Source: the human T2T-CHM13v2.0 reference genome, Homo sapiens
Assembly: GCF_009914755.1 (NCBI RefSeq)
Contig: NC_060941.1
Length of the DNA stretch: 64,000 nucleotides
Strand: one strand, 5' to 3'
This document shows, one piece after another, positions 6,980-27,776 of this stretch (within the stretch, counting starts at the first letter, position 1; every line of letters starts with the position of its first letter). Under the pieces are notes generated by a model. It was not told the DNA's origin. It did no database searches and worked only from the letters and a program-made list of their open reading frames with translations. The position numbers and the translations under genes are program-made.

Positions 6980-6992
6980 CCGTCTTTTAAAC
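6980..6992 (-). terminator. snRNA 3' box of U1-like gene A
   Basis: GTTTAAAAGACGG, 16 nt downstream of the predicted 3' end; resembles the GTTT-N-AAA-RNNAGA consensus. Confidence 0.6.
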
Positions 6993-7008
6993 TAGTTCAA
7001 TCACAGGA

Positions 7009-7163
7009 CAGAAAAGCGCAAAAGCAGTCCCCCACTACCACAAGTTATGCAGCCGAGTTTTCTCATTCGGGGAAATCGCGGGAGCAAACACATAGTAAAA
7101 ACCCTCCCCCAAGAAAAACACTTTATCAGGACCAACAGCGTCTCTCCCCCGCCACAAAGACAT
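7009..7163 (-). ncRNA. U1-like variant snRNA gene A (highly diverged 5' half)
   Basis: 3' half aligns with U1 (CGATTTCCCCGAATGAGAAAACTCGGCTGCATAACTTGTGGTAGTGGGGGACTGC); 5' end ATGTCTTTGTGGCGGGGGAGA; PSE, DSE and 3' box at canonical spacing; CpGs retained. Confidence 0.85.
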
Positions 7164-7205
7164 TATTTACTTAATATTGCTAATACCTTACCATCGTCCT
7201 CAACA

Positions 7206-7224
7206 CACAACATACTCATGGCAA
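7206..7224 (-). promoter_or_regulatory. PSE of U1-like gene A
   Basis: TTGCCATGAGTATGTTGTG starting at -61, the same offset as the PSEs of genes B and D. Confidence 0.65.
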
Positions 7225-7350
7225 ATTGTATTATGAGTTGTTTTTAGGCATCGCTTCGAAACTACCGCTTCTTCGTATGACACATCTCAGACTACACCTT
7301 CTTTGGTATTCGCTAGAAAATTTCTCCCGCGAAGAACGCACTAGAACCGG

Positions 7351-7400
7351 CAATCACTGCGCCCCTATCTACATATGCCCGCCTCTTATAGTAACGTCAC
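7351..7400 (-). promoter_or_regulatory. DSE of U1-like gene A (octamer, GC box, CRE-like site)
   Basis: ATGTAGAT at 7367-7374 (the octamer variant of human U1 genes), adjacent GGCGGG and GTGACGTTAC. Confidence 0.75.
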
Positions 7401-7500
7401 CACCTGCTTCTGTACGATCTGACTGAACTCCCTTACGGATCGGTTCGCTCTAGCTGCCGCTCCCAAGGATTCAAAAGAAATCGCATTGTGTGATAAGAAA

Positions 7501-8434
7501 TTTTTTTTCTTTTTTCTGCACAGGCTCATATAATAGAAGTAACTTTTGTTATTTTTTCAGAGAATTCATACAGCCATTAATTATCCAAACCTATTTCTCA
7601 GTGCTTTTCAATGGCGTGATCTCGGCTTACTGCAACCTCCGCCTCCCAGGTTCAAGCAATTCTTCTGCCTCAGCCTCCCGAGTAGCTGGGATTACAAGCG
7701 CCTGCCACCACACCTGGCTAATTTTTGTAGTTTTAGTAAAGATGGGGTTTCACCATGGTGGTCAGGCTGGTCTTGAACTCCTGACCTCAGGTGATCCGCC
7801 CACCTCGGCCTCCCAAAGTGCTGGGATTACAGACATAAGCCACCGCGCCTGGCCCTCAGTGCTCTTTTCATTCCACTTAAGAAATTGGAACACACCAGGA
7901 TGAGGATGATGATGCCAAAACTAGATTGATGGCTCACATCATCTAGGGTACAAATACACGCTTAATAATTTAACACTTTAGGCCAGGCGCGGTGGCTCAC
8001 GTCTGTAATCCCAGCACTTTGGGAGGCCGAGGCGGGTAGATCACCTGAGGTCAGGAGCTCAAGACCAGCCTGACCAACATGGTGAAACCTCATCTCAAAA
8101 TACAAAATATTAGCTGGGCGTGGTGGCGGGCGCCTGTAATCCCAGCTACTCGGGAGGCTGAGGCAGGAGAATCTCTTGAATCCAGGAGGTGGAGGTTGCA
8201 GTGAGCCGAGATCGCGCCATTGCACTCTAACCTGGGCGACAAGTAAAAAACTCCATCTCAAAAAAATAAATAAAATAATAATAATAATTTAACACTTTAT
8301 TGAACTCAAAGCAACATTAAGCATCTTTGCCTTCGTTTTACACAGCTGTAGGGGAGCTCAGGGAGGGGAAGGCTGCATGGTTTTCCTTGGCGGGGAAGGT
8401 GTGCACCCTGCAGTCCTGCGGTGTTGTGGGAAGA
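7501..8434 (-). other. IGBP1C: Retrocopied 3' UTR of the IGBP1 retrogene with poly(A) remnant, interrupted by two Alus
   Basis: AATAAA at 8296-8301; UTR continues past Alu 7981-8282 (TSD TAATAATTTAACACTTTA) and Alu ~7609-7853 (TSD CTCAGTGCT-TTT); A-tract at 7501-7515. Confidence 0.7.
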
Positions 8435-9457
8435 TTAGCCCATGTTCTGTCGGTTGCCGTAGCCCCTAGGGTGGGTGTCCTTCCAGTCATCCCACTCTCG
8501 AGCTCTTTGGAGTGTTTGTTCATCATCCTCTTCCTCCTTTTCTTGATCTTCCTGTTGCTGAGTGGCTTTTCTGAATTCTTCTGGTGTTGCCTTGGCTATT
8601 CCCTGATCTGGTAACACTCCATGTTTCTGATGTTGATCATACCAGTCACTCACTGTCATGGAAGCCAGACTTGGATAGCCAGCGCCAAATACTTTGGCTT
8701 GCGCCATGTTCCGAGTGAGAATGAAGGGTTTCATTGGAGGCCTCTTCTGGTGACATGAGTTAGAAGTGGATGCCTCTCTTGAAGAGTCTTTCTCTCCCAG
8801 GATCTTTATTTCCTGATCAATGCTCTCAATCTCTTCTAAGCTGATATCAATCCACCTCTGAAGGTGAAGAAGATAATATTCACGAACACGCTCATTATCT
8901 GCTTGACCACTTTCCACAGCAGATTTCATTGTAGACAACTTATGCTCCAACACCTTCTTCTGCTTGTATCGCTCTATTTTAGCCTGTCTTTGAGATGCCA
9001 TAGCAACGAGGCTAGGATAAGCCGTGGAGGTAATAGCACCGTGATTTTCAGCTGAGTTGGTCTTGGTTTGGGGCAGCTCAAACTCGGCCACACGATAGTA
9101 ATGGCACTGAGTTAAGTATTTTATAAAGTGTTCGCGAGCCTGCTGCAAATGATCTAGACGCTTACGGGGGTTGACTTGTTTCATGGTGAGGGCTCCTTGA
9201 AACGCTGGCACCATCAGGTACTTCAGGTCGGTGGAAGTAATCTCCTCCAAATCTTCATTTCGGCTGAACAAGTCAAGCTGCGATAACATTTTGGCAACCT
9301 TGTCAAGGAGGTCGAGGCCCTTGAACACCTTTTCCTGGACTATTCGGGAACCGGTGGGTTCAGTCGCTCCTTCGACTTCGTCCAGAAGCTGTTTGCTGGA
9401 ATCGAACAGCTCGGGGAGCCGCGGCGGCGGCAGGAACTCGTCTTCAGCAGCTGCCAT
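8435..9457 (-). CDS. IGBP1C: IGBP1/alpha4 (TAP42-family PP2A regulator) retrogene, intronless, 340 aa
   Basis: Uninterrupted [12 protein letters not shown]...[20 protein letters not shown]; good Kozak (AAGATGG); TAP42 motifs [20 protein letters not shown] retained; no introns. Confidence 0.9.
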
Positions 9458-9479
9458 CTTGGGAAGGCTGATGCGAAAT

Positions 9480-25636: not shown

Positions 25637-25655
25637 CACTCTTCACATAGGGTCA
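25637..25655 (-). promoter_or_regulatory. PSE of U1-like gene C
   Basis: TGACCCTATGTGAAGAGTG at -63, close to the RNU1 PSE TGACCGTGTGTGTAAAGAGTG. Confidence 0.7.
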
Positions 25656-26107
25656 CTCTTCTTGCACAAGTTCTAGCCTGCTACTTACAAGATAAAGACT
25701 TTTCCAAAGTTTAAGAGCCAGAAATGGCTGGGCACGGTGGCTCACGCCTGTAATCCCAACACTTTGGGAGGCCAAGGCAGGCAGATCACGAGGTCAGGAG
25801 TTCAAGACCAGCCTGGCCAACATGGTGAAACCCCATCTCTACTAAAAATACAAAAATTAGCCTGGCATGGTGGCGGGTGCCTGTAAGCCCAGCTATTCGG
25901 GAGGCTGAGGCAGGAGAATTGCTTGAACCTGGTAGGCAGAGGTTGCAGTGAGCAGATATGGTGCCACTGCACTCCAGCCTGGGCGACAGAGCGAGACTCC
26001 AACTCAAGGGGGAAAAAAAAGGGAAGTTTTTAGATGTGATTGATTTAAGATGAAAAGCTTATCCAGATGGGCCTAATGTAATCACAGGGTCCTTAAGGGA
26101 AGGACAC

Positions 26108-26720
26108 TGGAAGACAGTGTGGCGATTCCTCAAGGATCTAGAACTAGAAATACCATTTGATCCAGCAATCCCATTACTGGGTATATACCCAAAGGATTAT
26201 AAATCATGCTACTATAAAGACACATGCACGTGTATGCTTATTGCAGCACTATTCACAATAGCAAAGACTTGGAACCAACCCAAATGTCCATCAATGATAG
26301 AATGGATTAAGAAAACGTGGCACATATACACCACGGAACACTATGCAGCCATAAAAAAGGATGAGTTCATGTCCTTTGTAGGGACATGGATGAAGCTGGA
26401 AACCATCATTCTGAGCAAACTTTGCAAGGACAGAAAACCAAACACCGTATGTTCTCACTCATAGGTGGGAATTGAACAATGAGAACACTTGAACACGGGG
26501 TGGGGAACATCATACACCAGGGTCTGTCATAGGATGGGGGAAACGGGGAGGGATAGCATTAGGAGACATACCTAATGTAAATGACGAGTTAATGGGTGCA
26601 GCAAACCAACATGGCACATGTATACATATGTAACAAACCTGCACGTTGTGCACATGTACCCTAGAACTTAAAGTATAATAATAATAATAATAATAATAAT
26701 AATAATAATAATAATAATAA
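26108..26720 (+). mobile_element. 5'-truncated L1PA (ORF2 C-terminus + 3' UTR) with (AAT)n tail
   Basis: ORF 26117-26464 WRFLKDLELEIPFDPAIPLLGIYPKDYKS = L1 ORF2; ends CTAGAACTTAAAGTATAAT; 17-bp TSD. Confidence 0.95.
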
Positions 26721-27367
26721 AAGAGAAGGACACTGGAGCCAGGCGCCGTGGCTCACACCTGTAATCCCAGCACTTTGGGAGGCCGAGGCAGGTAAATCAC
26801 CTGAGGTTAGGAGTGCGAGACCAGCCTGGCCAACATGGTGAAACCCCGTCTCTACTAAAAATACAAACATTAGCAAGGCGTGGTGGCGTGTGCCTGTAAT
26901 CCCAGCTACTCAAGAGGCTGAGGCAGGAGAATCCCTTGAACCCTTGAGGCTGAGGTTGCTGTGAGCTGAGATTGCGCCATTGTACTCCAGCCTGGGCTAC
27001 AAGAGCGAAACGCCGTCTCCAAGAAAAGAAAAAAAACAGAAGGACTCTGGAGGTCCACAAAAAGATATAAAGACAGAAGAAAAGTCAGAAGATGCTAAAT
27101 TGTTAGCTTTGAAAAGGAAAGGGCTACAAACAAGGAAAATGTGAAGGTAACACTCCCTTAGAGCCGCCAAAGGTATTCAACTGCGTACTTCTGATTGTAA
27201 TGGCAAATCACTGTAGTACTCAATGACAACACCAACCACGAGGGGTGTGAGACCAAAAGCGTGTGTGGAGAAAAAAATGACCATTAGAAGGCATCAATCT
27301 CTCGCTATTCCAAAACAGGAGGTTACAATATAACACAGGAAAACCTACGAAGCAAAGATACAACGTA

Positions 27368-27381
27368 CGCCTTTTATAAAC
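27368..27381 (-). terminator. snRNA 3' box of U1-like gene D
   Basis: GTTTATAAAAGGCG, 9 nt downstream of the CCCCTG 3' end. Confidence 0.65.
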
Positions 27382-27390
27382 AAGCCAGAT

Positions 27391-27555
27391 CAGGGGAGAG
27401 AACCAACATAGTCCCCACTACCACAAATTATGCAATTAAGTTTCCCACATTTGTAGAAAACCACAGGGGTCAGCACATCCACAATGCAAGAGACAAACCT
27501 CACCCTGAAAAATCCACCTTTAATGATCATGTTATTTCCCTTGCCAGTTAAGTAT
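27391..27555 (-). ncRNA. U1-like variant snRNA gene D
   Basis: Full-length 165-nt U1 alignment; 5' ATACTTAACTG (C8A); Sm site intact; PSE, octamer and 3' box all present; internal CpGs decayed. Confidence 0.85.
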
Positions 27556-27597
27556 GAGTCCCCAGCGCTGCCTGAGAGTTCACCCTTAGATTCAAAC

Positions 27598-27616
27598 CAC
27601 TCTAAATATAGGATCA
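27598..27616 (-). promoter_or_regulatory. PSE of U1-like gene D
   Basis: TGATCCTATATTTAGAGTG starting at -61. Confidence 0.7.
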
Positions 27617-27754
27617 TTTTTCTCATGTGCTCTTTAGACCCCCTAATTTCTGGAATAAAGATATTTTCCAAACTACAATAACCCAGCACCTGTATTTTTA
27701 ATATCTGGCTATTCAAAATCTTAAGAAATATAAGCCTAGGGTGCAAATAGCCAG

Positions 27755-27776
27755 CAGTCACTGCGCTTATCTACAT
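27755..27776 (-). promoter_or_regulatory. DSE of U1-like gene D
   Basis: ATGTAGAT at 27769-27776 followed by AAGCGCAGTGACTG, similar to GGGGCGCAGTGATTG in gene A. Confidence 0.7.

What the first reader, a model, noticed from the sequence alone, without database searches (positions are those of the whole stretch)
6980..27776. Array of promoter-bearing U1 snRNA variants with different 5' recognition sequences, nested in a germline gene intron
Seen: four U1-like units on the same strand, with PSEs at -61, -61, -63 and -61, an ATGTAGAT octamer at about -200 to -220 in three, and clear 3' boxes in two. They are therefore DNA-level gene duplicates, not retrocopies. Their 5' ends differ: AUGUCUUUGUG (A), AUAAUUACCUG (B), ACUUUACCGGG (C), AUACUUAACUG (D), against canonical AUACUUACCUG. 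Established: U1 nt 3-11 pair with CAG|GUAAGU. From memory, expressed U1-like RNAs lacking 5'ss complementarity (U1A5/6/7 series) were reported from this locus, and the mouse Tex14 intron hosts U1/U3 genes. Inference: an ancestral U1 cluster that has diversified into a set of re-specified snRNPs, possibly acting on non-canonical splice sites or on premature-polyadenylation control in germ cells.
Basis: partly seen in the sequence, partly recalled or inferred. Interest (0 to 1): 0.85.

Follow-up and report, generated by a model that had tools for sequence, protein, structure and literature searches.

The report
Old variant U1 gene cluster in TEX14
Four diverged copies of the U1 spliceosomal RNA gene, each still carrying remnants of its own promoter, lie in the first intron of the human TEX14 gene; the cluster is already annotated and published, and its altered 5' ends look like decay rather than new targeting.

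Summary
Four U1-like units lie on the minus strand: A 7007-7163, B 14396-14554, C 25430-25593, D 27392-27555. Each has a PSE-like element at -61 or -62 and a 3'-box-like motif at +11 to +15. A, B and D also keep the U1 distal element, with TATGTAGAT at -205 to -221. They are therefore DNA-level gene duplicates, not retrocopies.

The cluster is already known. RefSeq and HGNC annotate all four units. A 2018 paper describes TEX14 as a host of U1 and U3 copies across vertebrates. A 2026 preprint ranks unit B (RNU1-108P) as gene-like.

New here:
- A and B show no CpG depletion (flank observed/expected 1.30 and 0.73), like real U1 genes (0.67-1.00). C (0.20) has decayed and lost its distal element to an Alu and L1 insertion. 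D is ambiguous.
- Across the four RNAs only the Sm site is conserved (2 of 60 positions changed, against 22% overall).
- The 5' ends (30% changed), the U1-70K and U1A loops, the stems and the folding energy look unconstrained.

"Re-specified snRNPs" is not supported. I could not confirm that U1A5/6/7 come from this locus. The cluster is most likely a relic, with one or two weakly live variant U1 genes.

The parts
7007..7163 (-). Unit A RNA body (RefSeq LOC124904122). It is the most diverged copy. The U1A-binding loop of SL2 is deleted and the Sm site has one change, at U127.
   Evidence: RF00003 58.8 bits, below the gathering score of 69.5. 79.5% identity to canonical U1 over aligned bases. 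Region details.
7206..7224 (-). Unit A PSE-like element, starting at -61.
   Evidence: Matrix score 12.2, p 0.0003. 14 of 19 identical to a real U5 gene PSE, p 0.002. Sequence checked.
7343..7402 (-). Unit A distal element: a TGACGT motif, then TATGTAGAT (octamer at 7367-7374, -211), then a GCGCAG..TGC block.
   Evidence: Aligns with the canonical U1 distal element. Local alignment p 0.018 against chr1 U1 and 0.008 against chr14 U1.
6980..6992 (-). Unit A 3'-box-like motif at +15.
   Evidence: It is a partial match to the consensus quoted in PMC5493778.
6750..7550 (.). Block of about 800 bp with no CpG depletion, co-extensive with the unit A transcription unit.
   Evidence: CpG observed/expected is 0.85-1.40 in 200-nt windows, against 0.34 for the whole window. 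The 557 nt tested is single copy in the genome.
14396..14554 (-). Unit B RNA body (RNU1-108P). The 5' end has one change (C4 to A) and the Sm site is intact.
   Evidence: RF00003 72.9 bits. 82.2% identity to canonical U1. 12 of 45 pairs broken.
14597..14615 (-). Unit B PSE-like element, starting at -61.
   Evidence: 13 of 19 identical to the U6-1 PSE, p 0.015. It fails the weighted matrix (-0.1, p 0.27).
14749..14790 (-). Unit B distal element: TGACGTCA (14776-14783) and TATGTAGAT (octamer at 14752-14759, -205).
   Evidence: Local alignment to canonical is marginal, p 0.052 and 0.078.
14372..14384 (-). Unit B 3'-box-like motif at +12. It resembles that of the chr14 U1 genes.
25430..25593 (-). 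Unit C RNA body (RNU1-52P). It has the best Rfam score, but only 2 CpGs remain against 8 in canonical U1.
   Evidence: RF00003 112.6 bits. 85.3% identity to canonical U1. Coding CpG counts; CpG changes visible in the alignment.
25637..25655 (-). Unit C PSE, starting at -62.
   Evidence: 15 of 19 identical to the chr14 U1 PSE, p 0.0002. Matrix score 14.0.
25406..25419 (-). Unit C weak 3'-box-like motif at +11.
25726..26012 (+). Alu inserted at about -133 of unit C (approximate ends), with L1 sequence beyond it. No distal element remains.
   Evidence: Sequence read. No octamer. No significant similarity to unit D's distal element upstream of the Alu, p 0.77.
27392..27555 (-). Unit D RNA body (RNVU1-34). 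The 5' end has one change (C8 to A), the Sm site is intact, and no CpG is left in the RNA body.
   Evidence: RF00003 101.4 bits. 81.5% identity to canonical U1..
27598..27616 (-). Unit D PSE-like element, starting at -61. Its core reads ATC, as in the real U12 PSE and one real U6 PSE.
   Evidence: 14 of 19 identical to the chr14 U1 PSE, p 0.002. Matrix score 7.6, p 0.007, falling to 3.7, p 0.067, when U1 sites are left out of the matrix.
27751..27823 (-). Unit D distal element, with the octamer at 27769-27776 (-221).
   Evidence: In the local alignment to both the chr1 and chr14 U1 distal elements, 0 of 500 shuffles reach the observed score.
27368..27381 (-). Unit D 3'-box-like motif at +11.

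Best explanation
This is the relic of an old tandem cluster of RNA polymerase II snRNA-type genes, four U1 copies plus a U3 copy, that sits in TEX14 introns. Each U1 unit arose by DNA duplication of a whole gene: a distal enhancer with an Oct-1 octamer near -210, a PSE at -61, the RNA body, and a 3' box.

The copies have since diverged 15-20% from canonical U1 (aligned bases; more if indels are counted) and 21-27% from each other. Selection seems to have held only the promoter motifs and the Sm site. It has not held the 5' splice-site-pairing end, the U1-70K and U1A loops, or the stems.

Inferred present state:
- A and B are still unmethylated in the germline. They are probably weakly transcribed through SNAPc and Pol II and cleaved at the 3' box by Integrator. 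Their RNAs could take an Sm core but would make poor U1 snRNPs, like the published low-abundance variant U1 RNAs that do not support splicing.
- C is a dead pseudogene.
- D is uncertain.
- The different 5' ends are drift, not re-targeting.
For: - Gene-type architecture. PSE-like elements sit at -61 or -62 in all four units. A and D, and marginally B, share distal-element homology with canonical U1, with the octamer at the canonical distance. 3'-box-like motifs sit at the canonical distance. The upstream regions of 23 dispersed snRNA pseudogenes gave uniformly spread p-values from 0.035 to 0.95 on the same matrix.
- C and D are sister copies. They align from about -125 to +164 and share 6 derived substitutions.
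- CpG observed/expected in the flanks is A 1.30, B 0.73, C 0.20, D 0.51. The value is 0.67-1.00 in 18 chr1 and chr14 U1 or variant U1 loci and 0.00-0.58 in 12 dispersed U1 pseudogenes.
- The Sm region changed at 2 of 60 positions, against 144 of 656 overall (Fisher p 5e-5). In the 12 control pseudogenes it changed at 9 of 180, against 7.7% overall.
- The 5' end changed at 13 of 44 positions, the SL1 loop at 11 of 40, and the SL2 loop at 16 of 44.
- Literature, passages read. TEX14 hosts U1 and U3 across vertebrates, with three U1 copies in human intron 1 (PMC5967550). [quoted passage not shown] The U3 copy in TEX14 is shown as an expressed locus (PMC11259605, figure legend). Most variant U1 RNAs fail to support splicing (PMC10870369).
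Against: - No expression, occupancy or methylation data were available to me, so the activity of A and B is inferred from CpG content and one preprint.
- Unit B's PSE fails the weighted matrix, and its distal-element alignment is only marginal.
- U1-108P, U1-52P and vU1-34 are absent from the main text of the Mabin 2021 survey of expressed variants (0 occurrences). Its supplements could not be opened.
- The selective conservation of the Sm site and of the octamer 9-mer could mean the RNAs do something. Four sequences are few, and the Sm region is also somewhat mutation-poor in the control pseudogenes (ratio 0.65).
- No orthologues could be examined, so ages and constraint rest on paralogue comparison.
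Confidence: 0.65

Rival explanations
1. One reading: the four units encode functional, re-specified U1-like snRNPs. Their altered 5' ends would direct them to non-canonical splice sites or to control of premature polyadenylation in germ cells.
For: - Promoter motifs and the Sm site are retained beyond neutral expectation.
- Variant-depleted regions are reported for RNU1-108P and RNVU1-34.
- Unit B's C4-to-A change would pair with a U at intron position +5. This is an inference from the established U1:5' splice-site pairing.
Against: - The 5' ends evolve at least as fast as the rest of the RNA (30% against 22%).
- The U1-70K loop has 2-4 changes out of 10 positions. The U1A loop is altered in B, C and D and deleted in A.
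- Stems are broken at neutral rates in B, C and D. The three apparent compensatory pairs in C appear to arise from CpG decay, judging from the changed positions.
- Folding z-scores are +0.07 to +0.72.
- No complementary 11-mer targets exist in the window other than the units' own opposite strand.
- Published variant U1 RNAs with restored 5' ends mostly fail in splicing.
- D's C8-to-A change would pair with a U at intron position +1, which cannot serve as a 5' splice site (established knowledge).
Confidence: 0.08
2. All four RNA genes are dead. A and B stay CpG-rich because their old promoters now serve as DNA elements, for example enhancers or factor-bound unmethylated islands acting on TEX14, IGBP1C or RAD51C, and not because an snRNA is made.
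For: - RefSeq lists an enhancer at 6433-7203 overlapping unit A (annotation supplied with the finding).
- The RNA bodies look unconstrained apart from the Sm site.
Against: - The CpG-rich block around A covers the RNA body and about 250 bp downstream as well as the promoter, which is the shape of a transcription unit.
- Conservation of the Sm site is not explained by a DNA-element role.
- The preprint reports gene-like hypermutation for B, which it ascribes to high transcription.
Confidence: 0.17
3. The copies are retro-inserted U1 transcripts that accumulated in a gene highly expressed in the germline, as speculated in PMC5967550.
For: That paper raises the idea (passage read). The region is full of Alu and L1 sequence.
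Against: - Homology to real U1 genes extends into the untranscribed promoter: the PSE at -61 or -62 in all four units and the distal element near -210 in A, B and D.
- There is no 3' truncation. The T run after unit B was read only as sequence; no poly(A) tail belonging to a U1 copy was seen.
- Dispersed retro-pseudogene controls show no PSE.
Confidence: 0.03

Closest known systems
Variant U1 (vU1) genes of 1q12-21 (O'Reilly et al. 2013, PMC3561869; review PMC5493778)
   Same: Both are imperfect U1 copies with recognisable but divergent DSE, PSE and 3' box, changes in the 5' end and in the protein-binding loops, and a retained Sm site. The published ones are weakly expressed.
   Different: The chr1 variants in my set (coding bodies of L007, L009, L011-L012, L014) match canonical U1 almost perfectly in the alignment and are closely alignable with it in their flanks. 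The TEX14 units are far older: 79-85% identical in the RNA, with flanks unalignable except at the motifs. They lie on chromosome 17 inside a host gene. Their expression is not shown in any text I could read.
TEX14-hosted U1 and U3 loci (PMC5967550, Fig. 7)
   Same: It is the same locus. That paper counts three U1 copies in human intron 1 and a U3 copy with a stem-loop deletion in intron 2. I recovered the U3 copy at window -20507..-20312.
   Different: That paper counts three U1 copies; unit A falls below the Rfam cut-off. It leans towards retro-insertion, whereas the promoter homology found here argues for gene duplication.
Canonical U1 genes on chr1 p36 and chr14 (loci L001-L006, L008, L010)
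   Same: The gene plan and element spacing are the same. The PSEs of C and D are closest to the chr14 type.
   Different: The canonical genes have identical, intact RNAs (175.1 bits, or 173.5 for the second chr14 copy L010; folding z = -1.9). The TEX14 units score 59-113 bits with z near 0.
U1A5, U1A6 and U1A7 (Kyriakopoulou et al. 2006; the paper was not held, so details come from passages in PMC3561869 and PMC10870369)
   Same: They are U1-like RNAs with altered 5' ends. vU1A7 is said to have a single change in the 5' region, as units B and D do.
   Different: vU1A5 carries G130A in the Sm site, which none of the four units has. The three RNAs are said to map to different genomic places. No sequence was available for a direct comparison.

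Membership tests
U1 spliceosomal RNA (Rfam RF00003) | Covariance-model score at or above the gathering score of 69.5 bits | tested here: met
   B 72.9, C 112.6 and D 101.4 bits. Unit A does not meet it, at 58.8 bits with E 1.7e-12.
Pol II snRNA-type gene (class I or variant U1 gene) | PSE about 55-61 nt upstream of the start | tested here: met
   Nearest-neighbour identity of 13-15 out of 19 at -61 or -62, p 0.0002 to 0.015, for all four units. The weighted matrix supports A, C and D but not B.
Pol II snRNA-type gene (class I or variant U1 gene) | Distal element with an octamer near -220 | tested here: met
   A at -211, B at -205, D at -221, against -219 in canonical U1. It is not met for C, where an Alu and L1 insertion lies upstream and no remnant is detectable.
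Pol II snRNA-type gene (class I or variant U1 gene) | 3' box 9-19 nt after the RNA end | tested here: inconclusive
   Motifs sit at the right distance in all four units. They are only partial matches, by hand count, to the consensus GTTYN0-3AARRYAGA quoted in PMC5493778.
Pol II snRNA-type gene (class I or variant U1 gene) | SNAPc and Pol II occupancy, and a capped, Sm-bound RNA of about 160 nt | not testable with these tools
   There are only indirect hints: CpG retention in A and B, the preprint's epigenomic and hypermutation models for RNU1-108P, and reads assigned to RNVU1-34 in extracellular-vesicle small-RNA data.
Functional U1 snRNP RNA | 5' end complementary to the consensus 5' splice site (nt 3-11) | tested here: not met
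   Changes in nt 1-11 are A 6, B 1, C 5 and D 1. D loses C8, which pairs with the invariant G.
Functional U1 snRNP RNA | Intact U1-70K loop (SL1) and U1A loop (SL2) | tested here: not met
   The SL1 loop has 4, 3, 2 and 2 changes out of 10. The SL2 loop has 6 (mostly deleted), 3, 2 and 5 changes out of 11.
Functional U1 snRNP RNA | Sm site | tested here: met
   In the 15-nt Sm region, C and D are identical to canonical U1, B differs only at its last position (137), and A has one change at U127.
Processed (retro) U1 pseudogene | No homology to U1 genes outside the RNA, often with 3' truncation or an A-tail | tested here: not met
   Promoter homology is present. The upstream regions of 23 dispersed pseudogene controls score as background.
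U1A5/6/7 RNAs of Kyriakopoulou 2006 | Sequence identity with the published RNAs | tested here: inconclusive
   G130A, reported for vU1A5, is absent from all four units.

The most novel reading that the evidence does not exclude
Units A and B, together with the neighbouring U3-like gene, are live snRNA-type genes kept in TEX14 introns since early amniote or mammalian times. Selection holds their promoters and Sm site while it lets the 5' end and the U1-70K and U1A loops go. They would then make Sm-class RNAs with a role other than 5' splice-site recognition, perhaps specific to the germline or acting on the host locus.
Probability: 0.12. Interest if true: 0.65.

Novelty: already known. Interest (0 to 1): 0.3.

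Why it matters
The locus bears on whether diverged snRNA copies are junk or working variants. That question has become medically relevant since snRNA 'pseudogenes' such as RNU2-2 were reclassified as disease genes, as stated in PMC13640761.

This work adds a cheap, sequence-only way to sort the four copies. 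CpG retention, calibrated on real U1 genes and on dispersed pseudogenes, marks unit A as a candidate live gene. Unit A has no HGNC name, and the 2026 preprint states that it excluded genes without HGNC-approved status. The same measure agrees with that preprint on unit B.

The work also corrects the published suggestion that these copies are retro-insertions. It does not reveal a new kind of system.

Tried and rejected
- First PSE matrix. It was dominated by eight U5 genes and failed to recognise real U1 PSEs in leave-one-out (2.1 and -2.8 bits), so I discarded it. I rebuilt it with three U6 PSEs, sequence weights and larger pseudocounts and added a nearest-neighbour test.
- Minimum-free-energy fold of canonical U1. 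It does not give the native cloverleaf, so I mapped the Rfam consensus structure onto human U1 by hand.
- Search for local RNA targets of the four 5' ends. Only the units' own opposite strands match.
- Suspected remnant of unit C's distal element upstream of the Alu, seen by eye. It is not significant, p 0.77.
- Whole-genome DNA searches with A and B plus flanks. Only self-matches reach 100% identity; other hits cover the U1 body alone at 84% or less. There are no close paralogues.
- Papers not held: Kyriakopoulou 2006 and Roca and Krainer 2009.
- No vertebrate genome other than the human assembly was available, so synteny and orthologue constraint were not tested.

Full report
What is there

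The window is human chr17 (T2T) around TEX14 and RAD51C. Rfam finds U1 (RF00003) on the minus strand at 25430-25593 (C, 112.6 bits), 27392-27555 (D, 101.4 bits) and 14396-14554 (B, 72.9 bits). All three are above the gathering score of 69.5. A fourth copy at 7007-7163 (A) scores 58.8 bits, below the cut-off, with E 1.7e-12. nhmmer with the canonical human U1 finds these four and nothing else in the window or in the adjoining 100 kb of TEX14. The same 100 kb holds a U3-like gene (Rfam U3, 78.3 bits) at window -20507..-20312, with a stem-loop deleted.

Are they genes with promoters, or retrocopies?

I fetched real human snRNA genes from the same assembly: U1 on chr1 and chr14, and U2, U4, U5, U11, U12 and U6.

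- Distal element. In a joint alignment, A, B and D share the U1 distal element with canonical U1: a TGAC(G/A)T(C/T)A-like motif, then about 20 nt, then TATGTAGAT, then a GCGCAG..TGC block. The octamer lies at -211, -205 and -221, against -219 in canonical U1. Local alignment of the -280..-160 region against canonical beats shuffles for D (0 of 500) and A (p 0.018 and 0.008). It is marginal for B (0.052 and 0.078) and absent for C.
- Unit C. An Alu at about -133 and L1 sequence lie upstream of C. No distal-element remnant is detectable beyond them (p 0.77).
- PSE. A first matrix was useless. A weighted matrix built from 18 real PSEs gave leave-one-family-out scores of 0.5-13.4 for real genes and a null 95th percentile of about 4. 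The upstream regions of 23 dispersed pseudogenes gave evenly spread p-values. The units scored A 12.2 (p 0.0003), C 14.0 (p 0.0001), D 7.6 (p 0.007) and B -0.1 (p 0.27). By nearest-neighbour identity all four have a PSE-like 19-mer at -61 or -62: 14, 13, 15 and 14 of 19, with p 0.002, 0.015, 0.0002 and 0.002.
- 3' box. 3'-box-like motifs lie at +11 to +15, as in canonical U1. By hand count they are partial matches to the consensus quoted in PMC5493778.
- C and D are sisters. They align from about -125 to +164 and share 6 derived substitutions.

The units are therefore DNA-level gene duplicates. The retro-insertion idea floated in PMC5967550 does not fit.

State of the promoters

CpG observed/expected in the flanks (-300..-1 plus 200 nt downstream) was calibrated on known loci. 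It is 0.67-1.00 for 18 chr1 and chr14 U1 or variant U1 loci and 0.00-0.58 for 12 dispersed U1 pseudogenes. The units give A 1.30, B 0.73, C 0.20 and D 0.51; D's promoter alone gives 0.28.

Around A, a discrete block of about 800 bp (about 6750-7550) shows no CpG depletion, although its GC content is only 0.41-0.48. The block covers the promoter, the RNA body and about 250 bp downstream, and the tested part of it is unique in the genome. Only 2 CpGs remain in C's RNA body and none in D's, against 8 in canonical U1. A and B keep some CpGs and gain new ones.

I infer that A and B have stayed unmethylated in the germline, as active snRNA-type genes do. I infer that C has been silent for a long time. 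D is unclear. The U3-like neighbour also has a PSE and a CpG ratio of 0.95, and a figure legend in PMC11259605 shows it as an expressed locus.

State of the RNAs

- Divergence. Identity to canonical U1 is 79.5, 82.2, 85.3 and 81.5% for A to D over aligned bases. Each unit is nearer to canonical U1 than to its sisters, which indicates independent decay from a canonical-like ancestor.
- Stems. Of the 45 standard base pairs, 6, 12, 6 and 7 are broken, against 10.7, 9.4, 8.4 and 9.1 expected from a neutral simulation. Only A is nominally low (p 0.038). C's three double changes appear, from the changed positions, to be CpG decays on both arms of a stem.
- Folding. None of the four folds better than shuffled sequence (z +0.07 to +0.72). 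Canonical U1 gives z -1.90.
- Per-region change. The 5' end changed at 13 of 44 positions (30%), the SL1 loop at 11 of 40 (28%), the SL2 loop at 16 of 44 (36%), and the Sm region at 2 of 60 (3%). The overall figure is 144 of 656 (22%); Fisher p for the Sm region is 5e-5.
- Control for the Sm region. In 12 dispersed pseudogenes the Sm region changed at 9 of 180, against 7.7% overall, a ratio of 0.65. Scaling by that ratio gives about 8.6 changes expected in the TEX14 units. By my hand binomial calculation, seeing 2 or fewer has probability of about 0.006.
- Octamer. The 9-mer TATGTAGAT is identical in A, B, D and canonical chr1 U1, despite 18-20% divergence of their RNA bodies from canonical and flanks that align only at the motifs. 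I take this as a sign of constraint on the enhancer.

In short, the promoter motifs and the Sm site look held. The parts that make a U1 a U1 do not.

The different 5' ends are real, but they are not conserved. They sit in RNAs whose U1-70K and U1A sites are damaged.
- D's change removes pairing to the invariant G at intron position +1.
- B's change would favour a U at position +5.
- A has lost pairing to the GU altogether.
These three points are inferences from the established U1:5' splice-site pairing. No complementary sites occur in the window apart from the units' own opposite strands.

Published work on other variant U1 RNAs, read as passages, points the same way. Variants make up less than 0.1% of U1 in 293T cells and are mostly less stable than canonical U1 (PMC8457000). 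Most cannot support splicing even when given a matched 5' end and the RNU1-1 promoter (PMC10870369).

I could not confirm that U1A5/6/7 come from this locus. O'Reilly 2013 says they map to different places and does not mention chromosome 17 or TEX14. vU1A5 has G130A, which no unit has. vU1A7 has one change in its 5' region, as B and D do, but no sequence was available to compare.

What is already known

- RefSeq and HGNC annotate all four units (table supplied with the finding).
- PMC5967550 (Fig. 7 legend and text) describes TEX14 as hosting U1 and U3 copies across vertebrates. It counts three U1 copies in human intron 1 and an amniote-conserved U3 copy.
[quoted passage not shown] It reports variant-depleted regions in RNU1-108P and RNVU1-34 (D).
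- RNVU1-34 is listed among snRNAs in macrophage vesicle small-RNA data.
- Full-text searches for 'variant U1' with TEX14 found 0 papers. 'U1 snRNA' with TEX14 found 2 papers. The gene symbols found 3 relevant papers. None gives a functional study of these four units.
- The preprint states that it excluded genes without HGNC-approved status, and the annotation supplied with the finding gives unit A only a LOC symbol. So the CpG evidence for A is a small addition.

Verdict

'Ancestral cluster' is supported by the literature. 'Re-specified snRNPs' is not supported. The locus is a known, old variant U1 and U3 cluster in decay, with A and B probably still weakly live. Interest is modest.

Noticed in passing
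outside the window: L039 9493-9688 (-), equal to window -20507..-20312: A U3-like snoRNA gene (Rfam U3, 78.3 bits) with one stem-loop deleted. It has a PSE-like element near -62 and flank CpG observed/expected of 0.95. It matches the TEX14 intron-2 U3 locus described in PMC5967550 and is shown as expressed in PMC11259605.
   Followed up: partly
window 8282-9687 and 39805-39911 (-): The IGBP1C coding exon lies between units A and B and uses TEX14 exon 1 as its first exon (annotation supplied with the finding). Units B, C and D therefore also sit in the IGBP1C intron. CpG-island-like windows occur at 9201-9800.
   Followed up: no
L008 and L010 (chr14 U1 genes) compared with window 25637-25655 and 27598-27616: The PSEs of units C and D are closer to the chr14 U1 genes (15 and 14 of 19) than to any other reference PSE in the set, the chr1 U1 gene included. 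The chr14 genes carry ATGCAGAT instead of ATGTAGAT and have very CpG-rich flanks (observed/expected 1.00). This hints that the chr17 and chr14 copies share an older promoter lineage.
   Followed up: partly
window 25726-26524: An Alu inserted at about -133 of unit C, followed by L1 sequence, has replaced or displaced that unit's enhancer. This is a clear case of promoter loss through a repeat insertion.
   Followed up: yes
window 39800-40800: CpG-island-like windows (observed/expected 0.60-0.93) lie at the head-to-head TEX14/IGBP1C and RAD51C start sites.
   Followed up: no
L059 and L060 (chr19 U6 genes), L057 (U12): Real human PSEs tolerate the same core deviations seen in units A and D. One chr19 U6 gene has GCC and the other has ATC in place of ACC, and U12 also has ATC.
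   Followed up: yes
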